DNA of 52,513 bases from positions 1 to 52,513 of the IMG/VR virus record IMGVR_UViG_3300025345_000016, one strand, 5' to 3'. Position numbers and translations under genes: made by a program. Below are positions 3,558-43,780 of this stretch, in pieces (positions within the stretch are counted from its first letter, which is position 1; each line of letters starts with the position of its first letter). The DNA comes from a virus. Lineage: Duplodnaviria; Caudoviricetes. A model generated the notes under the pieces. The model was not told the origin of the DNA, ran no database searches, and saw nothing but the letters and a program-made list of their open reading frames with translations.

Positions 3558-5389
3558 TTACTAATATCGTCTCTTCTAGATATGCTTTTTACGGGCATCT
3601 CTTTATTTTCTTTATCTTTCCCTTTTTTATCTTGTTTTAGTTGTTGCAATTTTTGTTCTATAACTTCAAGTAGTTTATGTGCCGTATCTTCTCCGTATTG
3701 TTGTGCAACACTTTCCAGTATCGTTACGATTTTCTTTTGATTTCCTTGTGTTTGTTCTATTATTTCATCCGCAATTTTATCATAATCAATATTTCCTTCT
3801 TCATCCGTATTTTCAGAAAATAAATCTTGTAAGTAATTAACATATTTCATTTCAAGAATTTTTCTTCTAAATTCGGAAAGAATATTATATTTTTCGTCTA
3901 ACTCTTGTTCGTAAGATATTTGTTGATAAATATCTTTAAGTTCCATGCCGTAATAAGTTTTTAATAGAAGTTCTTTTGGAAACTTATCTTGAAGTATTTG
4001 GAACAATAATTGAAATTCAGATAAAGAATCAATTCTTCTTGGTGGTATAAGAGATAATGTGAACTTTGGGAAATTATAAATTTTAGATAATATTTCGGAA
4101 AATCTTTGTAAGAATTCATTTAATTGAATGGTGATATTTAAAAGGGAATTTTCAAGTAATCTAATAGAAATAACATTAGATGCCCAAGTTCCTTCCATAA
4201 CAAGTTCTTTGGGTAAATCTGTTATTCCTATAAGATTAGTATATATCATTTCCATTAATTGCGTTAATATTGATATGTTTTGAACATTTCCTCCAATTTC
4301 CAATTTTTCATACGGTGTATCTGATATGAATAATTTTAACGGTTCCCTATCAATTTCTTTTAAAACTTTTCTTAAATTTTCAGATTTTTTAGATATATTA
4401 TGAACAGGAGTAACACCTAATTGTCCCTGCGGAGGAGAAAACAATAAACGATATGGTATGATTTCTTGTGAGTAATTTACTAATAAACGATATATTTCTA
4501 AAAGTATTAATGCACCTCTGTATCCCCTCGCAATTAACGGGAAAAATGGCAAATCAATTCCGGTGGGAAGATTATATTTTAAAGTAAATGTTGTTTTACT
4601 ATCTAAATAAAATTGAATTTCTTTTTTGTCTTCAATCAAAGACCATTTTAAGAGATTGTATTCAATTTTATTCAAAACATCAATACCAAAATTATTAATA
4701 ATTTCTTTAATTTTTTGTTTTATTAATTCACGATTTAATTTGATTAAAGAAGTTTTGGTAAAGGGTTCATATAAAATTTCTATATCTTTTACTGACCATA
4801 ATCTCAAATTAATATCTTTAAGTATTTTGTCTTTAACATTTGAGTAATAAACATAATCATCCGAATAAGTATCCAAATATATCATTTTATCATTTCTACA
4901 ATTTGGACACCTTATCTTTAAATATATCAATTTCTTCTCATTATCAACTTCAATCAAATCTTTTAGTAAAACATTAGGGGGAATTAAATCACTTTCAAAA
5001 ATAAAATTACATTTTAAACATTTTAATATTTTCTTTCCAAGAAATTCAATATTTAATATTCCAATACCATAAGTATAATAATCAACAAGTAAGTTAATCA
5101 AGGTATTTCTTAAATAATATTTTTTGTTTATTAGTTCATCAATTTTATTTTTTATATTTTCTGATAAATCCAGATTTTCTTTTACTTTTTCGTCATCAAT
5201 AATAATGTTAAAATCAACAATAGGATATCTTGAGGCACGATATATCGCCATAGATATTACAGGATCCGTTAAAACCAATTGTTCCGATATTTCAATTAAA
5301 AGATATAAAACTTTTGGATCGTTGAGATTTAATATATCACCAGGACCAAGAATTTCATATAACTTTTTAGAAAGATTTTGTGTATTCAT
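3554..5389 (-). CDS. Portal protein with Zn-ribbon insertion
   Basis: 611 aa; DPVISMAIYRASRYP, LLVDYYTYGIG and GITDLPKELV segments resemble large-phage portals; CLKC...CPNC insert. Confidence 0.7.
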   Translation of the reverse strand: MNTQNLSKKLYEILGPGDILNLNDPKVLYLLIEISEQLVLTDPVISMAIYRASRYPIVDFNIIIDDEKVKENLDLSENIKNKIDELINKKYYLRNTLINLLVDYYTYGIGILNIEFLGKKILKCLKCNFIFESDLIPPNVLLKDLIEVDNEKKLIYLKIRCPNCRNDKMIYLDTYSDDYVYYSNVKDKILKDINLRLWSVKDIEILYEPFTKTSLIKLNRELIKQKIKEIINNFGIDVLNKIEYNLLKWSLIEDKKEIQFYLDSKTTFTLKYNLPTGIDLPFFPLIARGYRGALILLEIYRLLVNYSQEIIPYRLLFSPPQGQLGVTPVHNISKKSENLRKVLKEIDREPLKLFISDTPYEKLEIGGNVQNISILTQLMEMIYTNLIGITDLPKELVMEGTWASNVISIRLLENSLLNITIQLNEFLQRFSEILSKIYNFPKFTLSLIPPRRIDSLSEFQLLFQILQDKFPKELLLKTYYGMELKDIYQQISYEQELDEKYNILSEFRRKILEMKYVNYLQDLFSENTDEEGNIDYDKIADEIIEQTQGNQKKIVTILESVAQQYGEDTAHKLLEVIEQKLQQLKQDKKGKDKENKEMPVKSISRRDDISK

Positions 5390-6477
5390 ATCACATGCAC
5401 TCCATTTTGAGATATATATTTTGAAATTTCTAATATTAAATCGTAAACAGATAAATCGGTATTACAAACAATTAAAGAATATTTATCCTCCGGAACACTA
5501 TTTATTATTTCATTTATTTTTTCTTCTATTAATTTGTTTATGGAAGTATTACCTGTAAAATATAATATAACACAGTAGGATAAATAAGGATGTTTTAAAA
5601 TATTTTTATTGAAATAAAATATTTCACTATTTGAAACTTCAAAATCAGAACAATAGAAAAGATATTTCGTTAATTGCGGTTTTTTCTCGAGGTATCTTTT
5701 ATAAAAATCAACCCAAGGCGTAAATAATGTTCCACCGCCTTCTGTTTGTCTAAAATAATCCCTTATTTCTTTTCTTTGATTTATAAGTTCTCTAACATTC
5801 ATATTTTTAGTTAATTTGTGAATAGAAAAATCATATACTTGCGTTGAATGAAGAAGTAACTGAACATAAGAAACATCAAAATTTTTTACAAGATAATTCA
5901 TTAAAAGTATTAAAAGAGACTTACTTACAAATCTTTCTTGCGGAGAAACACTTCCGGATATGTCTATATTGTATGTTATTAATGGAACAAATGTATATTC
6001 AATTTGTGTTGAAAAAATATTGTAAATAATATCATCTTCATAGAATGGAGGTTCAAAAAGTTCATCTAAGATGTTTTCATTCAATTCTTTTCCCATCATA
6101 ATAAGTGTCTTAAGTCTATTATTTAATGTTGTTTCAATATCAATTTGTGATTCCCTTCCTTTTTTATCTTTACCATATTTTTTAGTATTAATATTTACAA
6201 ATTTCTTTTCTTTTATGGGAAGTTGAATATAATCACCAAATATTTCAATAAATTCATCAACATCCATTATTTTTAGATCTTCATCATCTTGTCCTTGTCC
6301 TCTACCATTTCCTTCACCCGGAATATAAATATCAATATAAGTATATGGTATATGTGGTAATAATTTATTCTCTGTTGACTTTACTTGTTTAATAACTCTT
6401 TCTATATTTAAATCGGGATAATTTTCTAATAATCTTCTTATGAATTTTAATCTTGATTTGCGTGCGTTTAATTTCAT
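5386..6477 (-). CDS. yeaH: YeaH/YhbH-family vWA-domain protein
   Basis: Gly-rich GEGNGRGQG, DEFIEIFGDYIQLP, PFYEDDIIY, MIDAS DISGS, EGGGT, SD; lies directly after a prkA-like gene as in yeaG-yeaH. Confidence 0.8.
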   Translation of the reverse strand: MKLNARKSRLKFIRRLLENYPDLNIERVIKQVKSTENKLLPHIPYTYIDIYIPGEGNGRGQGQDDEDLKIMDVDEFIEIFGDYIQLPIKEKKFVNINTKKYGKDKKGRESQIDIETTLNNRLKTLIMMGKELNENILDELFEPPFYEDDIIYNIFSTQIEYTFVPLITYNIDISGSVSPQERFVSKSLLILLMNYLVKNFDVSYVQLLLHSTQVYDFSIHKLTKNMNVRELINQRKEIRDYFRQTEGGGTLFTPWVDFYKRYLEKKPQLTKYLFYCSDFEVSNSEIFYFNKNILKHPYLSYCVILYFTGNTSINKLIEEKINEIINSVPEDKYSLIVCNTDLSVYDLILEISKYISQNGVHVI

Positions 6478-8333
6478 GAGAATTTAATAATATTATCATT
6501 CATGTATTTTAGAACGACTTTTGCCGTCTTTTCGGAAAATCCTATTTTTTTCATATTATCGATAATCATGCGAATAATATTTTTACTTTCGTCTGAAATT
6601 GGAATATCAAAATTAAGGGAAGGTGCAAATAATTTGATTTTCTCTTTAAACATATATTCTTTAAGTGCGTTATAAAATTCAGGAAGATGTTTTTTTAACG
6701 ATAGTGTTTGATTTTGTAAAAGAAGTGAAGAAGTTAAACTTAATAAACGGAAATAAACATTTTTTCTATGTTCATAATCAGAAACGATTTTTAGATGTTT
6801 ATCAATAGAAGATAAGAATGTTTCATCAATATCAATTTTCTTTCCGGTTACCGGATCTTTTAATTCCGTTTTATTGACATAAGCACCAAGATGATCGTAA
6901 TATTTTCTAAATAATAAATCAATTTCTTTATCGATTTCATCGTATCCTAATAATGCATCAATTACGGTTTTAGTTATTTCGTTTTCCAAAAATTTTTCAG
7001 TCATAGAATAACATTCATTATATTCAACATTTTTATTTTGATTAAACTTTATAAAATTATCATATATTTTCTTTAAAACATCAATACAAGAAACTTCATC
7101 AAAAGAAGATAATTCGGATAAAATATTCGCAATTGTTCTTGGTGAAATTCCACTCATACCAACTTTAAAATCCTCGTAATATTCTTTTTTAATACTTTCT
7201 ATATCTGCGGAATCAGAATTATTATTTATATTTTCATTTTCTTCATCAAATATTTGTATGATTTTTTCTAGGTCTTCTTTTTTGTAAGATTTGATTATTC
7301 TTGTTAAAATAGAAAAATATGCCGACACTTTATAAACTAGAGGATCCATATGGTTAATTTCTTTTACTAATTTTTTAATGATTTTTATTTCACTAGTATA
7401 AGATAAATTGTATGGTATTTTTATAACAAATAAACGATCTCTGAATGCTTCGGTATCACTTCTTTGAATAAAGTTTTGATATTCGGGAATATTAGTATGA
7501 GAAATTAAAAATGTATCAATATTATATGCACCAAAATTTTTTAAAACTATCATTTTATCTTGCGAGGCGGTTAAAAGTATGTTTAAATGTTCAGTTTTGG
7601 ATTTCATTATTTCTACAAATTCTACTATTCCTCTGTTTCCACTTTGTAATGCACCAGTATAATTCCATACTCTCGGATCACTATCATTTTTATAAATACT
7701 TAATTTTGCGATAGAAAAGTTTCCTATTAAAACAGAATCATCAGTAGAATTGGGATCTCCCGGTGCATAAGTGGAAATTCCTATATTGCCTAAACGGGAA
7801 AATTGAATAGGAACAAGTTCAATTTCTTCCCATGGATTTTCTCTTAAAGTTTTTTGGCATACAGGACATGGTAAATAAAACGATTCTAAATAATTTACGC
7901 CATATTTATATTTTAATTCTTCTTTAAGATTTCTTGGAAGTAAAAATAATGGATTACAACGATTAGGACAATCTTTTGGTGCATATATTTCATGATTTTT
8001 GGTATATTCTTCAAGTAAAACTTTTAAAATTGATACGATACTTGATTTTGAAGAACCTGGAGGTCCTATTAAAATTAATATCCTTTTAAAAGTATCTTGT
8101 CCATTTGCCGCAGAATATATAAATCTAACAATTCTATCTAAAAAATAATCCAATCCAAAAATCTCATTTTTAAATGCATTATAAATCTTTATTCCATTTT
8201 TCTCTTTATATCCTTTTTCAATTATAGAAAGATAAACCAAACCATGTGCATTATATTGATAAATAATGTTTCTGTTTTCTTTTTCTATTTCGGATATAAA
8301 GTTGTTATAAAAGTTTATAAGACGCATACCCAC
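6474..8333 (-). CDS. prkA: PrkA/YeaG-family AAA+ ATPase (serine protein kinase annotation)
   Basis: Walker A GPPGSSKS, CPNRCNPL..CPVC, GALQSGNRGIVEFVEIMK, ISHTN, EAFRDR, GISPR. Confidence 0.92.
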   Translation of the reverse strand: MGMRLINFYNNFISEIEKENRNIIYQYNAHGLVYLSIIEKGYKEKNGIKIYNAFKNEIFGLDYFLDRIVRFIYSAANGQDTFKRILILIGPPGSSKSSIVSILKVLLEEYTKNHEIYAPKDCPNRCNPLFLLPRNLKEELKYKYGVNYLESFYLPCPVCQKTLRENPWEEIELVPIQFSRLGNIGISTYAPGDPNSTDDSVLIGNFSIAKLSIYKNDSDPRVWNYTGALQSGNRGIVEFVEIMKSKTEHLNILLTASQDKMIVLKNFGAYNIDTFLISHTNIPEYQNFIQRSDTEAFRDRLFVIKIPYNLSYTSEIKIIKKLVKEINHMDPLVYKVSAYFSILTRIIKSYKKEDLEKIIQIFDEENENINNNSDSADIESIKKEYYEDFKVGMSGISPRTIANILSELSSFDEVSCIDVLKKIYDNFIKFNQNKNVEYNECYSMTEKFLENEITKTVIDALLGYDEIDKEIDLLFRKYYDHLGAYVNKTELKDPVTGKKIDIDETFLSSIDKHLKIVSDYEHRKNVYFRLLSLTSSLLLQNQTLSLKKHLPEFYNALKEYMFKEKIKLFAPSLNFDIPISDESKNIIRMIIDNMKKIGFSEKTAKVVLKYMNDNIIKFS

Positions 8334-11502: not shown

Positions 11503-11826
11503 TTATTTTTTTCTTTGTTTTTCAACTATTTTACTTCTTTTTAATTTTCCTTTTCTTTTGGCAAGTTCTTTTAATTTTCTTGCCTTTGGTTCATCTTTGG
11601 GATGCCAAATGGATGTAACAACGGTTCTTCCTCCTCTTTTTCCTTTTCTACTTACTACTGCAATGGTTAAAAGATGGCGATACCCATCTTTATCATATAC
11701 TTCTTTTCTGCGATATTTAGTTGCATCAGGAGGATCTTTTCTAATTTTTTGAATAATATAATTTGGTGTTTCTTCTACATATAAAAAATCATCAGGATGT
11801 ATTTTATTATTTTTCTTTTTTGTCAT
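11503..11826 (-). CDS. Small basic protein (107 aa)
   Basis: Lys/Arg-rich ORF starting 9 nt after the tmRNA 3' end. Confidence 0.75.
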   Translation of the reverse strand: MTKKKNNKIHPDDFLYVEETPNYIIQKIRKDPPDATKYRRKEVYDKDGYRHLLTIAVVSRKGKRGGRTVVTSIWHPKDEPKARKLKELAKRKGKLKRSKIVEKQRKK

Positions 11827-11834
11827 TTTTTAAA

Positions 11835-11996
11835 TGGAGGTGGCGGGAGTTGAACCCGCGTCCTCTGGAATCCGTTTTTAGAAAAAATCAAAAAAAATAA
11901 AAAAAGAAAAATCTATAGATCTACTCGTCCGTTATGCGTATACCGTTGCACTTCTCAAAATCAAAGATTCCAGAGTCGAAACCCACTTTCACCCCC
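11835..11996 (-). ncRNA. ssrA: Miniature tmRNA (162 nt)
   Basis: 5' GGGGGTGAAAGTGGGTTTCGAC and 3' GGACGCGGGTTCAACTCCCGCCACCTCCA; acceptor stem GGGGGUG/CACCUCC with G3-U70 and discriminator A; T-arm GCGGG-TTCAACT-CCCGC; P2 helix TCTGGAATC/GATTCCAGA; CCA not encoded. Confidence 0.9.
11921..11929 (-). other. Predicted tmRNA tag reading frame GAC GAG TAG = (A)DE-stop
   Basis: Preceded by AUAACG, which puts U at -5 and A at -4 as in the canonical tmRNA resume context. Confidence 0.6.
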
Positions 11997-12005
11997 ATAA
12001 AAATG

Positions 12006-13748
12006 TCACACGAAGAAAGAAAATATTTTGTATTTATCTAATATATTTAAATTTAATAATTTCGGTGTTGGTCTTAATGGATCAATAACTCCAACATAAT
12101 AAGAATAATCACTCGGAATATTTCTTATTACTTCATTGAAATTATAAGGTGTTTCGTCGGGAATTAAATTGGTAATAACATCGGAATTGTAATTTGTAAC
12201 AAAAATAACAAAATTTTTAGGAAGGCAATATATTTCATGAAATGGATAATCATTGTCTACTCTAAAAGACAACTCTTTATCTAATGCATTTTTATCATAA
12301 ATAATATAAATTTCATCAAATCTTTCAAGTGTTTCTCTGAAAATTAAAATTCTATTTCCAATATTATTAAAATCAATTCTAAATGGAACTGGATATATTT
12401 TATTTTCAATTAAACCGAAAGAACCAATTATTTTTCCCCCAATATCACTAGAAGTTAATACAATATCCATAGATAATAAATTGTTATTTAATTTTTGTAT
12501 GTTAATATTTGGTTCGGTTCTAATTAAAATCATATTTGTATTTCTTACAACATTATTATAACGCATTATTTCATTTATATAAAACTTGATATTAATACCA
12601 CTTTCAATATCTTCTCTTTTTATACCACCAAAATTAAAAACAAAAATTTTTTTATTCGAAGGATTATAATCATTAATATATTTTAAATCAAGATTGGGAT
12701 TATTGATAAGAAGTATGAAATCTTGTAAAATTTCAGAACTTAAAACATCATCACTTGAATTTACTTTAATATTGAGTAATTGTGGCGTAAAAATAGAATG
12801 ATTTTTTAATAAGTAGGTATTAAGTTTAAAAAGATTGTGGCCATCAAAGGAAATTAAGTTTCCTTCTTCATCACTTACGGCAAACATTAAATCCACATCT
12901 AATGGATAATAGTATACATTTTTCCAATCATCTTCATTATAAATTATAATTCTATCCGGTTTCTTTTCTTCTTGTATTGTTTTGAATTCTCCTGAAGTAA
13001 TTTGATAATAATTTGAATTTAAATTTGGATTAGTATTAAAACCTAAAAATTTGTTTGGCATATATTCAAAATTCTCGTCATAAATCAAATACAATAATAG
13101 ATTATTTAAATATTGTTCTCTTTCTAGGGAATATTCTAATGCAAAATTGATACCATCTCTTTGTGTGTTATTATAATATCCAACAAATCTTATTCCTCCT
13201 ATAACATGCAATGAGGTAATGAAAGATGGAAGTTCGGGAATAATCCTTTGATAAAATGAACCAATATTCGGATCAATGACACCATGCCAATAAGTATAAA
13301 GTAAAAATACAGAAGAATATTTATCATAAGTAATGTATTTAAATATTTTAAAACACGGATCACCACTAAATATTAAACCATTATAAACAAATGTTTGATT
13401 TCCTATATAAATACAATTATAATTACTTGGTTCAGATGGGGATGCAGGACAATCCGTTATAACAACTTTCAAGGGTGTCCCTATTACAAGATTATCTAAA
13501 AAACTATGATATTGAATTTTAACAAAAGTTAAACCGAATTTGATTTCATAACTAACAATATTTAAATTTAAATTAACACTATTTTCTTGATAATTTGTCC
13601 ATTTAACATTTTCAACCAATATTGTGGGTCCATAATTGTTGTTTTGAGATACAAATGTTGATATAAATGGATAAGATAAATTAGATTCATGTTTTAAAGT
13701 GGATTTTACAATTGCATGGAAAGAAGGAATGATATTTTTAATTAACAT
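12006..13748 (-). CDS. Putative virion or tail-associated protein, 580 aa
   Basis: Long beta-rich ORF directly downstream of the tail-fibre-like gene. Confidence 0.6.
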   Translation of the reverse strand: MLIKNIIPSFHAIVKSTLKHESNLSYPFISTFVSQNNNYGPTILVENVKWTNYQENSVNLNLNIVSYEIKFGLTFVKIQYHSFLDNLVIGTPLKVVITDCPASPSEPSNYNCIYIGNQTFVYNGLIFSGDPCFKIFKYITYDKYSSVFLLYTYWHGVIDPNIGSFYQRIIPELPSFITSLHVIGGIRFVGYYNNTQRDGINFALEYSLEREQYLNNLLLYLIYDENFEYMPNKFLGFNTNPNLNSNYYQITSGEFKTIQEEKKPDRIIIYNEDDWKNVYYYPLDVDLMFAVSDEEGNLISFDGHNLFKLNTYLLKNHSIFTPQLLNIKVNSSDDVLSSEILQDFILLINNPNLDLKYINDYNPSNKKIFVFNFGGIKREDIESGINIKFYINEIMRYNNVVRNTNMILIRTEPNINIQKLNNNLLSMDIVLTSSDIGGKIIGSFGLIENKIYPVPFRIDFNNIGNRILIFRETLERFDEIYIIYDKNALDKELSFRVDNDYPFHEIYCLPKNFVIFVTNYNSDVITNLIPDETPYNFNEVIRNIPSDYSYYVGVIDPLRPTPKLLNLNILDKYKIFSFFV

Positions 13749-18832: not shown

Positions 18833-19468
18833 TTATACTATTTTATTAGAAACTACAATTATTCCATAAAATGGATTAGAACCAATTATTTCTAATTGTT
18901 TATCAGTATCTGCAATAGTATTAACTAATTTCAATTTTGCGTGTTGAGTTGAGGCATTAGGAGGAATCACTTTACAGTAAATGGAACTATTAGGATCTAT
19001 ACTATTATCAATATCAATTAATCCTTGACCAGTAAATTTTGAAGGAATTGTTAAACCATAAAAATATTCAGAATCGGTATTTAATAAAAGGATGGTATAT
19101 ACATCTTTTTTTTCTGTTAATACAAAATCTTTTGATGGATTTTTATAATAATCGCCATATAAAACTATTCCCTTTAATGTAGAAGTATTAGTATAAGGTT
19201 TTAGAATATATAAGTTATTTTCACCGATTTCAACATCATAAATATTACCCGGTATTAAATTTTCGGTTATTGAATCATCCTTAATTGCATATTTTACAAT
19301 AACATTTTGAAGACCGGCAAATGTATTTCCAGACCAAATACCAAATCTTATATTATCTCCTTTATCATTGGCAATCCAATTACCAAGAGGAACTACAATA
19401 TCTTGTAAAGGAAACTTTTCTAAAACTTTTACGATTTCAGGATCAAAATTTATAGGTGTTCCAACCAT
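18833..19468 (-). CDS. Putative head decoration / structural protein
   Basis: 211 aa, immediately upstream of the MCP and preceded by the CACATT motif. Confidence 0.55.
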   Translation of the reverse strand: MVGTPINFDPEIVKVLEKFPLQDIVVPLGNWIANDKGDNIRFGIWSGNTFAGLQNVIVKYAIKDDSITENLIPGNIYDVEIGENNLYILKPYTNTSTLKGIVLYGDYYKNPSKDFVLTEKKDVYTILLLNTDSEYFYGLTIPSKFTGQGLIDIDNSIDPNSSIYCKVIPPNASTQHAKLKLVNTIADTDKQLEIIGSNPFYGIIVVSNKIV

Positions 19469-19492
19469 ATCATAATTTAATGTGATTTTGGA

Positions 19493-21406: not shown

Positions 21407-21695
21407 GGGCCTTTCTTATTCTATTTAAATCATTTTCAAAATTGTGTTGAATTTTTCTTGGATTGTTATTTCTTTCATCTGTTATTGATCTAAATGAAGA
21501 ATATTCTTGTATTAATGAGGAAACTTTTTTAAGTTCTTCGTTTTCTTTTTTTAGTTTATTCAATTCATTTTCTAATTTAATTGCAATTTCTTTCCAATAT
21601 TGTAACTCACTTTCTTTTTTATTATATTCATCTTTTAATTGATCTAAAAGGGCATATATTTGAGATTTAAATTCTTTAAATTCCTCGTATGTCAT
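21390..21695 (-). CDS. Coiled-coil protein, scaffold-like
   Basis: 101 aa, charged heptads; CACATT 10 nt upstream. Confidence 0.7.
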   Translation of the reverse strand: MTYEEFKEFKSQIYALLDQLKDEYNKKESELQYWKEIAIKLENELNKLKKENEELKKVSSLIQEYSSFRSITDERNNNPRKIQHNFENDLNRIRKALEEVI

Positions 21696-21719
21696 ATCAT
21701 TAAATAATGTGTTGTTATT

Positions 21720-25664: not shown

Positions 25665-25823
25665 TTATTTAATGGGAGGGATTGTAATTGCAGTGTTATA
25701 ACCTCCACCTCTTCTTCTGGATCCAATCGGTATTTGTATTCCCAAAATAAATGATAGTATTCCTTTTATTTTATTACTATAACCAAAAATATAATAAATT
25801 CTTGATTTATATGTTCTTTGCAT
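25665..25823 (-). CDS. 52-aa hypothetical protein
   Basis: MQRTYKSRIYYIFG...TIPPIK; GACATT 10 nt upstream of the ATG. Confidence 0.55.
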   Translation of the reverse strand: MQRTYKSRIYYIFGYSNKIKGILSFILGIQIPIGSRRRGGGYNTAITIPPIK

Positions 25824-25840
25824 ATCATTTTAAAATGTCA

Positions 25841-41814: not shown

Positions 41815-42618
41815 TTATTTAATTTTTAATTTTTCTAGTATCTTTTGTATAGGTGATTTTTGTTCTTCTTCCGGATGCATTGTTTCAATAACTTTAGTCA
41901 TTCTTTTTTTATGTTTTTCTATTTCTTCTTTTTTCAATCTTTGTAATTCATGTTCCCTTTCTTCTATATAAGGTAATATATATTTCTCATAATTTTCTCT
42001 TGCTTTTTGTTTAATATTCTCATATCTTGTATTATTTATCCAATTTTCATAATGATTTTTTATTTTTGTTAATGTTTCGGGATCATCTATGGTTTTAAGG
42101 AAATGATCTTTGAATTCATTATATATTTTATTTTCTCTAGAACCGGGTTTTAAAAAAGGTTTTCGATACGATAGAACTTTATCTCCCATTATATTTTCGG
42201 GATGAAATATACTTAAAATAGTATTGTGATAAAGATTCTTATCTATATCTTCATATTCATTTAAACCCAATTTTTTATTAATTTTTTTCATAATTGTAAA
42301 ATAGTTAAGAAAATTTATATGATAACTATCTGGTTCGCCAGTTATATACTTAATTCGATGCTTATAGTTTTCTAAAAATACATCTTTAAGATTTTTTCTC
42401 ATTATTTGGAGTTTCTTTTTATCTTGTATTTTTTCAAGTTCATTAGAAACATGTTTATAAAAATTTATATCATTAAAATTTCTATAAAAAGGATAATCTT
42501 CATATTTTCCTTCTTTCCATGCATCCATAAACTCATCATGAAAAGGTTTAGATAATTCAAGATAATCTGAACTTTCTTTTTTGTTTAATAAAATATTTTT
42601 TAATTTTATTAAATTCAT
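41815..42618 (-). CDS. Hypothetical protein, paralog of 42625..43338
   Basis: Shared KKINxxLG..Y..IDK...H.T.L...HP and IDD..TL..(I/L)KN.YE..IN motifs. Confidence 0.85.
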   Translation of the reverse strand: MNLIKLKNILLNKKESSDYLELSKPFHDEFMDAWKEGKYEDYPFYRNFNDINFYKHVSNELEKIQDKKKLQIMRKNLKDVFLENYKHRIKYITGEPDSYHINFLNYFTIMKKINKKLGLNEYEDIDKNLYHNTILSIFHPENIMGDKVLSYRKPFLKPGSRENKIYNEFKDHFLKTIDDPETLTKIKNHYENWINNTRYENIKQKARENYEKYILPYIEEREHELQRLKKEEIEKHKKRMTKVIETMHPEEEQKSPIQKILEKLKIK

Positions 42619-42624
42619 ATCATT

Positions 42625-43338
42625 TTAAAATGTCTTTTTTCTTTGTATTTCCTTTATTCTTAAATCAATTAAAGGTTCGATTTTCTCTTTATAAAATTTT
42701 TTAATATAAGGTACCCCTTCTTTCATATCTTCTCTGTGTTTTTCAAAATAGTTAATATATTCTTCATATTTATTTTTTAATTCTTTTAAAGTATCGATAT
42801 CATCTATATAATCTATTGATTTAGAGAAAGACTTAAGGCGTTTCTCTTTATAGGAGGAAATTTTACCTTCTTTAAATTTTGGTAAATAAATACTATCTAA
42901 ATCAATAAAATGTCGAGGATGATATAGTTCTAAAAAAGTTTTATGAAAAATTTTTTTATCAATTCCATCATAAGGGTCTCTTCCTAATCTTTCGTTAATT
43001 TTTTTTCTAAAAACCAAATATCCGTTTAAAAGACGGGCCTTATGCTCGGTGTCTCTAAGACTATTTAAAATAAAATCTCTTTTTAAATCTTCTTCTAATG
43101 AATTGGGATACCAATGTTCTTTCATTCTTTTTTCCAACATTTCTAATTCTTTATCCGATAAACTATCTATGACATTAGCAAAATGACTAGGATGATAAAT
43201 ATCTTTAGAAAATCCAGAAACAAATTCGTGTATTAAATCATACTGCTCTTCTCCCTTTCCTTTTATAAAATCTTTAAGAAATTTTAATTTTGCTTCTTTT
43301 ATATTTTCTAGTATATTTTTTAATTCTAAAAGTAACAT
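42625..43338 (-). CDS. Hypothetical protein, paralog of 41815..42618
   Basis: Same shared motifs; N-terminus MLLLELKNILENIKEA. Confidence 0.85.
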   Translation of the reverse strand: MLLLELKNILENIKEAKLKFLKDFIKGKGEEQYDLIHEFVSGFSKDIYHPSHFANVIDSLSDKELEMLEKRMKEHWYPNSLEEDLKRDFILNSLRDTEHKARLLNGYLVFRKKINERLGRDPYDGIDKKIFHKTFLELYHPRHFIDLDSIYLPKFKEGKISSYKEKRLKSFSKSIDYIDDIDTLKELKNKYEEYINYFEKHREDMKEGVPYIKKFYKEKIEPLIDLRIKEIQRKKTF

Positions 43339-43345
43339 AACATTA

Positions 43346-43780
43346 TTAAATGTGCTTTGGTATTTCTAATTTCTGATCCGTATATGCAAGAAAAGGATTT
43401 AATGTAAAAGTATTATATACCGCAATATGATGTACATATGATTCTCCCTTTTCCAATGATTGCATAATACGATTCATTACTTTATTAACATCTATTATTT
43501 CTTTATATTTGTCTAAATGTTCAACGATATCATTTAAATTATTAAATTCTCCTTGTGATAATGTAAATATTTTTTGAACATGATGATTAGGAAATTTTTC
43601 ATCTGGCATGTATGTTTCACCTATAACGAATAAACGATATTTAACTTTATTTCCTTCTTGTATGGGAGTAAATACAACATGTATTTTATCTTTTTTATTA
43701 AATTCTTTTTTGTCAAGTATTTTACTAGGATCTCCTTCGTATATTCTATCAAAATTATTTTGTGAGTATTTGATTAACAT
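43346..43780 (-). CDS. Hypothetical protein
   Basis: 144-aa ORF. Confidence 0.8.
   Translation of the reverse strand: MLIKYSQNNFDRIYEGDPSKILDKKEFNKKDKIHVVFTPIQEGNKVKYRLFVIGETYMPDEKFPNHHVQKIFTLSQGEFNNLNDIVEHLDKYKEIIDVNKVMNRIMQSLEKGESYVHHIAVYNTFTLNPFLAYTDQKLEIPKHI

What the first reader, a model, noticed from the sequence alone, without database searches (positions are those of the whole stretch)
11835..11996. Phage-encoded 162-nt mini-tmRNA with a predicted proteolysis-resistant (A)DE tag
Seen in sequence: a complete tRNA-Ala-like domain (G3-U70, discriminator A, T-arm, D-loop ending TTCGAC) and a perfect 9-bp P2 helix, with only about 65-70 nt inside instead of the usual pseudoknot ring. The canonical resume context (U-5, A-4; AUAACG) points to GAC GAG UAG, followed by a ~30-nt U-rich linker. 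Established: bacterial tmRNAs are about 350 nt and usually encode tags ending in apolar residues (e.g. ...LAA) read by ClpXP and other proteases; engineered DD-ending tags escape degradation, and pk2-4 can be replaced by single-stranded RNA. Inference: a natural minimal tmRNA that frees stalled ribosomes without destroying the product, or that competes for SmpB. It could counter mRNA-cleaving toxins or abortive infection, or protect phage proteins. It carries the putative late-promoter motif 5 nt upstream.
Basis: partly seen in the sequence, partly recalled or inferred. Interest (0 to 1): 0.92.

Follow-up and report, generated by a model that had tools for sequence, protein, structure and literature searches.

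The report
Phage mini-tmRNA without pseudoknots
An uncultured hot-spring phage carries a real 162-base, pseudoknot-free miniature of the bacterial ribosome-rescue RNA (tmRNA), but the proposed two-residue acidic "ADE" tag is no better supported than several other readings.

Summary
The object is real. Rfam's tmRNA model hits window 11832-11996 on the minus strand at 66.3 bits (cut-off 47, E 1e-23); ARAGORN misses it. It has an intact alanine-type tRNA-like domain, an 11-pair P2 helix and only about 66 AU-rich bases where about 276 consensus positions of pseudoknots and tag normally lie. The contig is a 52.5-kb virus record (terminase, SNF2 helicase) seen in hot-spring metagenomes. The gene sits 5 nt behind the phage's start-proximal motif [GC]ACATT.

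The tag claim is not supported. GAC GAG UAG has U-5/A-4, but G at -1 occurred in 0 of 131 reference contexts. Its profile score lies below about 98-99% of true resume sites, and shuffles of the loop do as well in 13-46% of trials. GCA-UAA and GCA ACG GUA UAC GCA UAA score alike.

Best reading (0.4): a reduced tmRNA that uses host AlaRS and SmpB and gives short, degron-less rescue. Main rival (0.3): an SmpB/tmRNA competitor like the published tRNA-like-domain-only RNA of phage DS6A.

This scan has met phage mini-tmRNAs before on other DNA. It is a new variant of a known kind.

The parts
11835..11996 (-). Mini-tmRNA gene: 162 nt from G1 (11996) to discriminator A (11835); CCA not encoded
   Evidence: Rfam RF00023 66.3 bits, E 1e-23; sequence; fold
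11990..11996 (-). Acceptor stem, 5' strand GGGGGUG (RNA 1-7), with G3 of the G3.U pair
11976..11989 (-). D-loop analogue AAAGUGGGUUUCGA (RNA 8-21), part of the tmRNA-type ...GGnUUCGAC motif
   Evidence: Aligned to the Rfam consensus with high posterior probability
11965..11975 (-). P2a 5' strand (RNA 22-32), pairs with 11863-11873
   Evidence: 11 pairs (10 Watson-Crick + 1 G.U) in the MFE and centroid folds. A variant in run X3, 11864 T>C, turns U23-A133 into U23.G133 and keeps the pair
11951..11962 (-). Possible P2 extension, 5' strand (RNA 35-46); AU-rich, interrupted
   Evidence: MFE only; Rfam aligns it to the P2 continuation with low posterior probability; no covariation data
11887..11950 (-). 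AU-rich interior loop (RNA 47-110) in place of PK1, tag, H5 and PK2-4
   Evidence: 66-nt insert against 276 consensus positions; folded alone, MFE only -5.6 kcal/mol; no significant similarity to the interiors of 205 full-length tmRNAs
11921..11929 (-).
   Evidence: U-5/A-4 present but G-1 unprecedented (0/131). Best of the loop only with the longer profiles, still at or below 98-99% of true sites
11932..11949 (-). Alternative frame GCA ACG GUA UAC GCA UAA (RNA 48-65): (A)ATVYA. It contains a second possible resume at GCA60 giving (A)A
   Evidence: Both have A at -4 and score like the GAC site. 2-residue Ala-Ala tags are reported for 25 bacterial tmRNAs (PMC11915505)
11906..11926 (-). Weak hairpin (RNA 71-91) that holds the UAG stops; an H5-like position
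   Evidence: MFE: 8 pairs, 3 of them G.U, one bulge; not tested by covariation
11880..11911 (-). U-rich run (RNA 86-117)
   Evidence: Sequence
11863..11886 (-). P2 3' strands (RNA 111-134)
11836..11859 (-). T arm (RNA 138-154) and acceptor 3' strand CACCUCC (RNA 155-161)
   Evidence: The 29-mer 11835-11863 is identical in the tmRNA genes of at least 120 bacterial species of many phyla
12002..12007 (-). GACATT start-proximal motif, 5 nt before G1; overlaps the TGA stop of the upstream gene
   Evidence: 16 of 36 [GC]ACATT copies lie 5-15 nt before the first ATG of an ORF of at least 50 aa, against 0.32 expected
11503..11826 (-). ORF107 (P0009), a basic 107-aa protein that starts 8 nt after the tmRNA 3' end and has no motif of its own; probably co-transcribed
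   Evidence: 37 relatives; confident model of unknown fold; linkage to tmRNA not conserved in 2 IMG/VR loci
12006..13748 (-). Upstream 580-aa gene of unknown function; its stop lies 9 nt before G1

Best explanation
This is a genuine phage gene for a pseudoknot-free, one-piece, reduced tmRNA.

Shown:
- The RNA has every sequence and structure mark of the tmRNA tRNA-like domain plus a long P2 helix.
- It occupies its own tight slot in a late/structural gene block.
- It lies directly behind the motif that precedes the phage's genes.

Inferred:
- It is transcribed from that motif, with or close to its mature 5' end, together with ORF107.
- It is trimmed at the 3' end and given CCA by the host.
- It is charged with alanine by host AlaRS through G3.U70/A73.
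- It is bound by host SmpB and EF-Tu, since no smpB lies in the window, and enters stalled ribosomes.
- The 64-91-nt unstructured AU-rich loop then loads into the mRNA channel as a minimal template.
- All three frames close within 12 codons, and none of the possible tags ((A)A, (A)DE, (A)ATVYA, (A)GRVDL) ends in the usual ...AA degron. The outcome would therefore be ribosome release with a very short, probably non-degradative tag, whichever codon is used.

The phage would thus add rescue capacity without feeding its own unfinished proteins to the host's tag-directed proteases. My estimate that the exact tag is (A)DE is about 0.15.
For: - Rfam 66.3 bits / E 1e-23, with a full-length tRNA-like-domain alignment.
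- Perfect acceptor stem, T arm and 11-pair P2.
- Phage context: terminase phrog_675 at 1e-45, SNF2 helicase, IMG/VR virus record.
- Motif 5 nt upstream, enriched about 50-fold before gene starts. Because the tmRNA is not translated from its 5' end, the motif here speaks for a transcription or processing signal and for the RNA being treated as a gene.
- The sequence is kept in contigs of 4 hot-spring runs from 4 studies (one may be the source). The only variant inside it is A133G, which keeps a P2 pair.
- It retains P2 and a 64-91-nt loop, whereas the tRNA-like-domain-only forms also found here are 81 nt (L010; G016).
- All three frames of the loop close by RNA position 84.
- TAG is used as a stop (2 of 42 ORFs) and coding density is 93% under code 11, so there is no sign of recoding.
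- Literature passages read:
  - Natural 2-residue tags exist (PMC11915505).
  - The MLD must load through the 30S latch as part of a closed RNA ring (PMC13692277).
Against: - No homologue was obtained, so nothing shows that the loop, any frame or even P2 is under selection.
- The best resume-like site scores below about 98-99% of 131 true sites and is matched by 13-46% of shuffles.
- PK1, which anchors the MLD in E. coli, is absent, and its possible hairpin substitute has only 4 pairs.
- The loop's helices are AU/GU-rich and would be unstable at hot-spring temperature.
- ARAGORN finds no tag.
- No expression data exist.
- tRNA-like-domain-only phage forms show that phages can use the domain alone, so the loop may be dispensable baggage.
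- The window holds no smpB, and the host is unknown.
Confidence: 0.4

Rival explanations
1. Decoy or competitor. The RNA works through its tRNA-like domain only. It is charged, binds host SmpB (and EF-Tu), and so lowers tagging by the host's own tmRNA, protecting phage proteins or disturbing host quality control. The loop is an unselected remnant or a spacer.
For: - Published precedent: the tRNA-like-domain-only ssrA of mycobacteriophage DS6A. A similar molecule strongly inhibits E. coli tmRNA, perhaps by titrating SmpB (passages in PMC4131195; PMC11915505).
- No statistically supported resume site.
- Earlier notes of this scan describe many such phage genes. These are leads only.
Against: - This RNA keeps an 11-pair P2 and 64-91 further bases that a pure decoy does not need. 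The tRNA-like-domain-only forms are half its size.
- Nothing here measures SmpB binding.
Confidence: 0.3
2. Decaying relic. A full-length ssrA captured from a host recently lost its interior by deletion and is on its way out. It is not functional.
For: - A single lineage is known.
- The interior is AU-rich like the rest of the 24% GC genome.
- No conserved tag; ARAGORN negative.
Against: - All 23 pairs of the acceptor stem, T arm and P2 are intact, and the domain is 41% GC in a 24% GC genome.
- The gene is packed to within 9 and 8 nt of its neighbours, behind the phage's own gene-start motif.
- The interior shows no significant similarity to any of 205 full-length tmRNAs (best local score 20; null maxima 19-27), so there is no sign of a recent deletion from a sampled donor.
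Confidence: 0.12
3. Processing punctuation. The tRNA-like domain mainly serves as an RNase P / RNase Z cleavage signal. It separates the upstream message and creates the short-leader 5' end of the ORF107 mRNA, as tRNA-like elements do in other compact genomes.
For: - ORF107 starts 8 nt after the discriminator and lacks the [GC]ACATT motif that 16 other gene starts have.
- The resulting leader length would match the 7-10 nt seen after the motif elsewhere.
Against: - A plain tRNA or a bare hairpin would do. The specific tmRNA features (no anticodon arm, UUCGAC D-loop, G3.U, long P2) are not needed for punctuation.
- ORF107 homologues in two other virus contigs have no tmRNA or tRNA-like hit within 3 kb at E <= 0.1.
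Confidence: 0.08
4. attP core. The tmRNA-like 3' end is the phage attachment site for integration into the host ssrA gene.
For: - Genomic islands often integrate into ssrA (PMC11915505 introduction).
- In all four runs an abundant foreign contig matches 11831-11863 with 2 differences.
Against: - An att core explains only the 3' half, not the matching 5' acceptor strand, the D-loop and the 5' strand of P2.
- No tyrosine or serine recombinase was found in the window (PF00589 and PF00239: 0 hits at E <= 1). The record is only about 67% complete, however.
- The 29-mer is identical in at least 120 species of many phyla, so the foreign match is expected without any att relation.
Confidence: 0.03

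Closest known systems
Standard one-piece bacterial tmRNA (SsrA), Rfam RF00023
   Same: Alanine-type tRNA-like domain with G3.U70, discriminator A, T arm, UUCGAC D-loop analogue, no anticodon arm, long P2 helix. Scores above the family's gathering threshold end to end.
   Different: 162 nt instead of the 342-415 nt seen in the 120 loci that share its 3' end. No PK1-PK4, no recognisable tag frame, CCA not encoded. Phage-borne, with no smpB nearby.
tRNA-like-domain-only (CDS-less) tmRNA of mycobacteriophage DS6A (tmRNA Website tmID 11587; Mao et al. 2009 as cited in PMC4131195 and PMC11915505)
   Same: A phage-encoded, drastically reduced tmRNA that keeps the tRNA-like domain and has no convincing tag. 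The published idea of SmpB titration applies to both.
   Different: DS6A is 'little more than the TLD'. This RNA is about twice that size, with an 11-pair P2 and a 64-91-nt loop that could in principle thread the mRNA channel.
Full-length phage tmRNAs (mycobacteriophages Bxz1, Cali etc., Bacillus phage G; Streptomyces phages annotated with tags such as ANSNVASAYALAA)
   Same: A phage-carried ssrA that depends on host SmpB and AlaRS. Full-length tmRNAs also occur in 3 of the 25 virus records searched (G005, G007, G011), each with a distantly related terminase.
   Different: Those keep pseudoknots and a normal degron-type tag.
Engineered E. coli tmRNAs with pseudoknots replaced by unrelated or single-stranded sequence
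   Same: They show that a tmRNA without native pseudoknots can still tag (statement in PMC2481249; the primary papers by Nameki 2000, Tanner 2006 and Wower 2009 are recalled, not read).
   Different: Those are laboratory constructs with a normal resume context and tag, and with the pseudoknots replaced one or a few at a time. Here all are absent at once, in nature.
Bacterial tmRNAs with 2-residue Ala-Ala tags (25 sequences, common in Fermentibacterota; PMC11915505)
   Same: A precedent for an extremely short natural tag. The GCA60-UAA reading here would give the same (A)A product.
   Different: The paper describes these as tag-encoding bacterial tmRNAs and, in the passage read, does not say they lack pseudoknots. 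Not phage-borne.
Mitochondrial and some plastid tmRNAs without a tag frame (RF02544; about 65-bp Mallomonadaceae plastid genes)
   Same: Natural reduction of tmRNA to the tRNA-like part.
   Different: Organellar, mostly permuted or two-piece, and without a long loop.

Membership tests
tmRNA (RF00023) | Score at or above Rfam's curated gathering threshold over the whole model | tested here: met
   66.3 bits against 47, model positions 1-374, E 1e-23
tmRNA (RF00023) | Acceptor stem with G3.U70 and discriminator A (alanine identity) | tested here: met
   GGGGGUG/CACCUCC plus A162. Charging itself is not testable here
tmRNA (RF00023) | T arm with a tRNA-type T loop, and a D-loop analogue ...GGnUUCGAC without a D stem | tested here: met
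   GCGGG-UUCAACU-CCCGC and GGGUUUCGAC, aligned with the highest posterior probability
tmRNA (RF00023) | Long helix P2 in place of the anticodon arm | tested here: met
   11 contiguous pairs, in both the MFE and centroid folds. One natural variant keeps a pair
tmRNA (RF00023) | Pseudoknots PK1-PK4 forming the ring | tested here: not met
   276 consensus positions are replaced by 66 bases. The loop alone folds at only -5.6 kcal/mol. No dedicated pseudoknot predictor was run
tmRNA (RF00023) | Tag reading frame with a resume codon in the conserved upstream context (A at -4, U/C at -5, G at +1) and a stop | tested here: inconclusive
   Three sites have A-4 and G+1. All score at or below about 98-99% of 131 true sites and are no better than shuffles. 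ARAGORN calls no tag
tmRNA (RF00023) | Works with SmpB | not testable with these tools
   No PF01668 hit in the window at E <= 1; the record is about 67% complete; a host SmpB is assumed
tRNA-like-domain-only (CDS-less) phage tmRNA, DS6A type | [quoted passage not shown] | tested here: not met
   162 nt, with 113 nt between the UUCGAC motif and GGACG. The tRNA-like-domain-only hits found here are 81 nt
tRNA-like-domain-only (CDS-less) phage tmRNA, DS6A type | No tag reading frame | tested here: inconclusive
   No supported frame, but short frames cannot be excluded
Permuted / two-piece tmRNA (RF04321, RF01849-51) | Acceptor 3' half encoded upstream of the 5' half | tested here: not met
   Standard order; the best clan hit is RF00023

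The most novel reading that the evidence does not exclude
A natural, fully pseudoknot-free tmRNA of 162 nt that is a competent trans-translation template. It would thread a bare single-stranded loop through the 30S latch, resume without a canonical upstream context or PK1, and release ribosomes after adding at most 6 residues that lack a degron. A phage would then run its own ribosome rescue uncoupled from proteolysis. It would define the minimal natural tmRNA and show what the pseudoknot ring is not needed for.
Probability: 0.3. Interest if true: 0.8.

Novelty: new variant of a known kind. Interest (0 to 1): 0.5.

Why it matters
tmRNA biology has long asked what the pseudoknot ring and PK1 are for, and how the resume codon is chosen. 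So far the answers rest on engineered E. coli variants.

A natural RNA that keeps only the tRNA-like domain, P2 and an unstructured loop is an ideal minimal substrate. It is short enough to synthesise and can be tested in standard alanylation, SmpB-binding and non-stop-reporter assays.

For phage biology, it adds an intermediate form between the full-length and the tRNA-like-domain-only phage tmRNAs. This suggests that phages tune host ribosome rescue in more than one way.

If it proves to be only a decoy or a relic, it is one more member of a little-studied but already described class.

Tried and rejected
Homologue hunt (all negative)
- GenBank phages, blastn: only matches to the 3' half of the tRNA-like domain, 0 of 108 records covering 80% of the query.
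- Terminase tblastn in phages: at most 25% identity.
- IMG/VR by the 580-aa neighbour: 0 relatives.
- IMG/VR by terminase profile: 37 loci, all at most 28% identity.
- IMG/VR DNA patterns: 0 hits; 16 hits, none a mini-tmRNA of this type; 4 and 42 chance hits.
5 passed an acceptor-pairing filter, and all 5 are interiors of GC-rich full-length tmRNAs. BLAST of the RNA against all loci gave no hit to its 5' or inner part.
Every case where the 5' end could be found is a tmRNA of 342-415 nt.
- Terminase relatives P0001 (98%), P0002 (80%) and P0003 (70%) exist in the protein collection, but their contigs could not be fetched.

Host
- The 5' tRNA-like half is most like that of Ignavibacteria/Melioribacteraceae-type tmRNAs, which also lack an encoded CCA.
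- The terminase profile found nothing in 5 such genomes or in 401 genomes of that class.
- The host is left open.
- An eyeballed likeness of AUAACG-GAC-GAG-UAG to their UUAACU-GGC-GAA-UAU resume region is not significant in a local alignment.

Other checks
- Recoding of TAG, which would lengthen the DE frame to DEQIYRFFFFYFF: rejected. TAG ends 2 of 42 ORFs and coding density is 93% under code 11.
- ORF107 as an SmpB-like partner or a BECR-type RNase:
  - No Pfam family in any of 30 members except two stray single hits.
  - The Atlas lead to PBECR2/3 scored only 0.88.
  - The AlphaFold model is confident (pLDDT 88.7), but there is no Foldseek match at E <= 0.001 and the best VIA Z is 4.2.
  - The idea is left as unresolved.
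- Intrinsic terminator inside or after the gene: 0 found.
- Phe_leader hit at 27.3 bits against a cut-off of 55: a low-complexity chance match.
- A second copy of the gene in the window: none.
- RNA evidence: no RNA holder was listed among the 4 runs.
- Literature searches for a pseudoknot-free phage tmRNA with a loop found none.
Full report
WHAT IS THERE

Rfam's tmRNA model (RF00023) matches window 11832-11996 on the minus strand at 66.3 bits. The gathering score is 47, the E-value is 1e-23, and model positions 1-374 are covered (again). It is the only Rfam family above threshold in the 52.5-kb window. ARAGORN reports no tRNA and no tmRNA.

Read on the minus strand, the RNA runs from G1 at 11996 to the discriminator A at 11835, 162 nt in all. 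Its parts are:
- acceptor stem GGGGGUG/CACCUCC with G3.U;
- D-loop analogue ending in UUCGAC;
- a possible AU-rich extension of P2 (RNA 35-46 with 111-123);
- an interior of about 64 nt;
- T arm GCGGG-UUCAACU-CCCGC.

UUU follows the discriminator, so CCA would have to be added by the host. In Rfam's alignment, 276 consensus positions (PK1, tag, H5, PK2-4) are replaced by 66 bases.

The whole-molecule fold is only modestly better than shuffles (z = -1.9). That fits a stable tRNA-like domain and P2 around an unstructured loop. Folded alone, the loop reaches only -5.6 kcal/mol.

CONTEXT

- The "genome" is the window itself, a linear IMG/VR virus record that CheckV rates 67% complete.
- GC content is about 24%.
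- It has a large terminase (phrog_675, 1e-45), an SNF2-type helicase, a PrkA-like AAA protein and a tail-like N-terminus. Most of its proteins match nothing.
- Near-identical DNA occurs in Logan contigs of four hot-spring metagenome runs from four studies. One of these may be the source.
- No smpB, tyrosine integrase or serine recombinase is detectable in the window, but the record is incomplete.
- Under the standard code the 43 ORFs of at least 100 aa listed cover 93% of the window. Their stops are TAA 31, TGA 9 and TAG 2, and one ORF is open-ended. There is no sign of stop-codon recoding.

The tmRNA lies in a run of minus-strand genes. It begins 9 nt after the TGA of a 580-aa gene and ends 8 nt before the ATG of a 107-aa gene.

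THE MOTIF

GACATT lies at 12007-12002(-), 5 nt before G1. [GC]ACATT occurs 36 times in the window. In 16 of these cases the first ATG of an ORF of at least 50 aa lies 5-15 nt downstream, against 0.32 expected from position alone. So the motif is a real gene-start signal.

Its presence before an RNA that is not translated from its 5' end argues for a transcription or processing signal rather than a ribosome-binding site. It also argues that the phage treats the tmRNA as a gene.

ORF107 has no such motif and would be co-transcribed with the tmRNA.

THE TAG

Their composition was:
- A at -4 in 131/131;
- U at -5 in 104 and C in 25;
- G at +1 in 131/131;
- at -1, U 77, C 51, A 3 and G 0.

ARAGORN itself uses a resume consensus, so this profile is partly circular. 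It agrees with the mutational work read in PMC2481249, which found that A86 (-4) is the main frame determinant and that U85 tolerates changes.

In the mini-RNA, three sites have A-4 and G+1:
- GCA60 (A-stop);
- GCA48 (ATVYA-stop, in the same frame as GCA60).

With a -6..+3 profile they score 0.9, 1.4 and 1.0 bits. True sites have a minimum of 1.2, a 5th percentile of 5.1 and a median of 10.0. With -6..+6 or -12..+6 profiles GAC68 becomes the best site, but it still lies at or below 98-99% of true sites. Shuffles of the loop reach the best score in 46%, 26% and 13% of trials respectively.

All three frames close by RNA position 84, as expected for AU-rich sequence. The short ORF is therefore no evidence in itself, and (A)DE is one of several equally weak readings. 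The stops UAG74 and UAG82 sit in a weak hairpin (RNA 71-91), at a position like that of helix 5. The hairpin has three G.U pairs and a bulge.

COMPARATIVE EVIDENCE

None could be had; the individual searches are listed under Tried and rejected.

In the four runs the only difference inside the gene is 11864 T>C. It sits on one contig of run X3 at depth 7.3, and it changes U23-A133 to U23.G133. That is compatible with P2 but is a single event.

The loop has no significant local similarity to the interiors of 205 full-length tmRNAs. The best score is 20, against shuffle maxima of 19-27. So there is no trace of a recent deletion from a sampled donor.

The 3' 29-mer is identical in at least 120 species of many phyla. 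An abundant foreign contig in each run matches 11831-11863 with 2 differences. Given how widely the 29-mer is shared, this says nothing about host or attachment site.

WHAT IS KNOWN

- Phage tmRNAs are on record: eight mycobacteriophages, Bacillus phage G, and many Streptomyces phages annotated with tags.
- DS6A carries "little more than the TLD", and a similar molecule strongly inhibits E. coli tmRNA, perhaps by titrating SmpB (PMC4131195 passage; PMC11915505 passage).
- PMC11915505 also reports CDS-less organellar forms and 25 bacterial tmRNAs with a 2-residue Ala-Ala tag.
- Among the 25 virus records searched (23 reached through terminases at most 28% identical to this one, and 2 through ORF107 homologues), 4 hold a tmRNA above the Rfam cut-off. 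Three are full-length and one is an 81-nt tRNA-like-domain-only form. Another 81-nt form turned up.
- This scan's earlier notes describe further phage mini-tmRNAs of 69-232 nt on other DNA, some from hot springs. I treat those as leads, not evidence.
- My literature searches found no description of a phage tmRNA that keeps P2 and a long loop but has no pseudoknots. Supplementary tables were closed.

HOW IT MOST LIKELY WORKS

Shown: the tRNA-like domain, P2, the gene slot and the motif.

Inferred from established tmRNA biology: processing, CCA addition, alanylation through G3.U70/A73, SmpB and EF-Tu binding, and entry into stalled ribosomes.

The open step is what follows peptide transfer. [quoted passage not shown] The MLD has to load through the 30S latch as part of a closed ring (PMC13692277). 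A 64-91-nt single-stranded loop is a plausible minimal ring, whereas an 81-nt tRNA-like-domain-only RNA cannot thread. I therefore favour, at 0.4, a minimal template that releases the ribosome after a few codons and leaves no ...AA degron.

The rivals are:
- a decoy or competitor of the DS6A type, 0.3;
- a decaying relic, 0.12;
- a processing signal for ORF107, 0.08;
- an att core, 0.03.

That tagging is dispensable but charging is needed for growth of lambda-immP22 hybrids is recalled (Withey and Friedman 1999) and was not read here.

ORF107

It is a basic 107-aa protein with 37 relatives at E <= 0.001. Its AlphaFold model is confident (pLDDT 88.7): a five-stranded sheet with a C-terminal helix. 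It has no PDB fold match and no Pfam family. The protein-atlas lead to phage BECR-type nuclease domains scored 0.88, below the level at which such hits are reliable. Its homologues in two IMG/VR contigs have no tmRNA within 3 kb, so it is not an obligate partner of the RNA.

VERDICT

The "phage mini-tmRNA" reading holds. The (A)DE tag and the defence-related functions are unsupported.

It is a new variant of a known kind: an intermediate between full-length and tRNA-like-domain-only phage tmRNAs. It is of moderate interest, mainly as a natural minimal substrate for testing what the pseudoknot ring and the resume context are needed for.

Noticed in passing
window, both strands; e.g. 15176(+), 15196(-), 11487(-), 41725(-), 42634(-): [GC]ACATT is a strong gene-start signal. 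16 of its 36 copies lie 5-15 nt before the first ATG of an ORF of at least 50 aa, against 0.32 expected. It also precedes the non-coding tmRNA, which favours a promoter or processing role over a ribosome-binding role.
   Followed up: partly
window 19466-19484, 21693-21711, 25821-25839, 42616-42634, 43336-43354 (all minus strand): Five gene starts share SACATT-N5-ATGATATG (4 exact, 1 with one mismatch; 0.19 expected, and 0 of 100 shuffles reach 5). In the four exact copies that have A after the main ATG, a two-codon mini-ORF ATG-ATA-TGA overlaps the real start codon. Possibly a leaderless mini-uORF coupled to re-initiation.
   Followed up: partly
window 11503-11826 (-): ORF107 is a very basic 107-aa protein with a K/R-rich C-terminal helix, directly behind the tmRNA. 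It has 37 relatives and a confident AlphaFold model with no PDB fold match and no Pfam family. A weak protein-atlas lead points to phage BECR-type RNase domains (0.88).
   Followed up: partly
L010 810-890 (-) and L299 (G016:C1:57329-57409, -): Two other virus records carry 81-nt tRNA-like-domain-only tmRNA hits above the Rfam cut-off (64.5 and 48.8 bits). The L010 hit lies beside tRNA genes.
   Followed up: no
window 11831-11863, as laid in runs X1-X4: In every run an abundant foreign contig (4.7-5.0 kb, depth 87-246) matches the tmRNA 3' end with 2 differences and then continues as a GC-richer sequence typical of a full-length tmRNA. This is probably a dominant community member's ssrA, not evidence of the host.
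   Followed up: partly
window 6474-8333 and 5386-6477 (-): A PrkA-type AAA protein (PF08298 at 4.5e-75, PF06798 at 5e-25) followed by a DUF444/YeaH-like protein, inside a phage structural block.
   Followed up: no
window 11779-11927 (-): Sub-threshold Rfam Phe_leader match (27.3 bits against a cut-off of 55), caused by the U-rich run. Judged a low-complexity artefact.
   Followed up: yes
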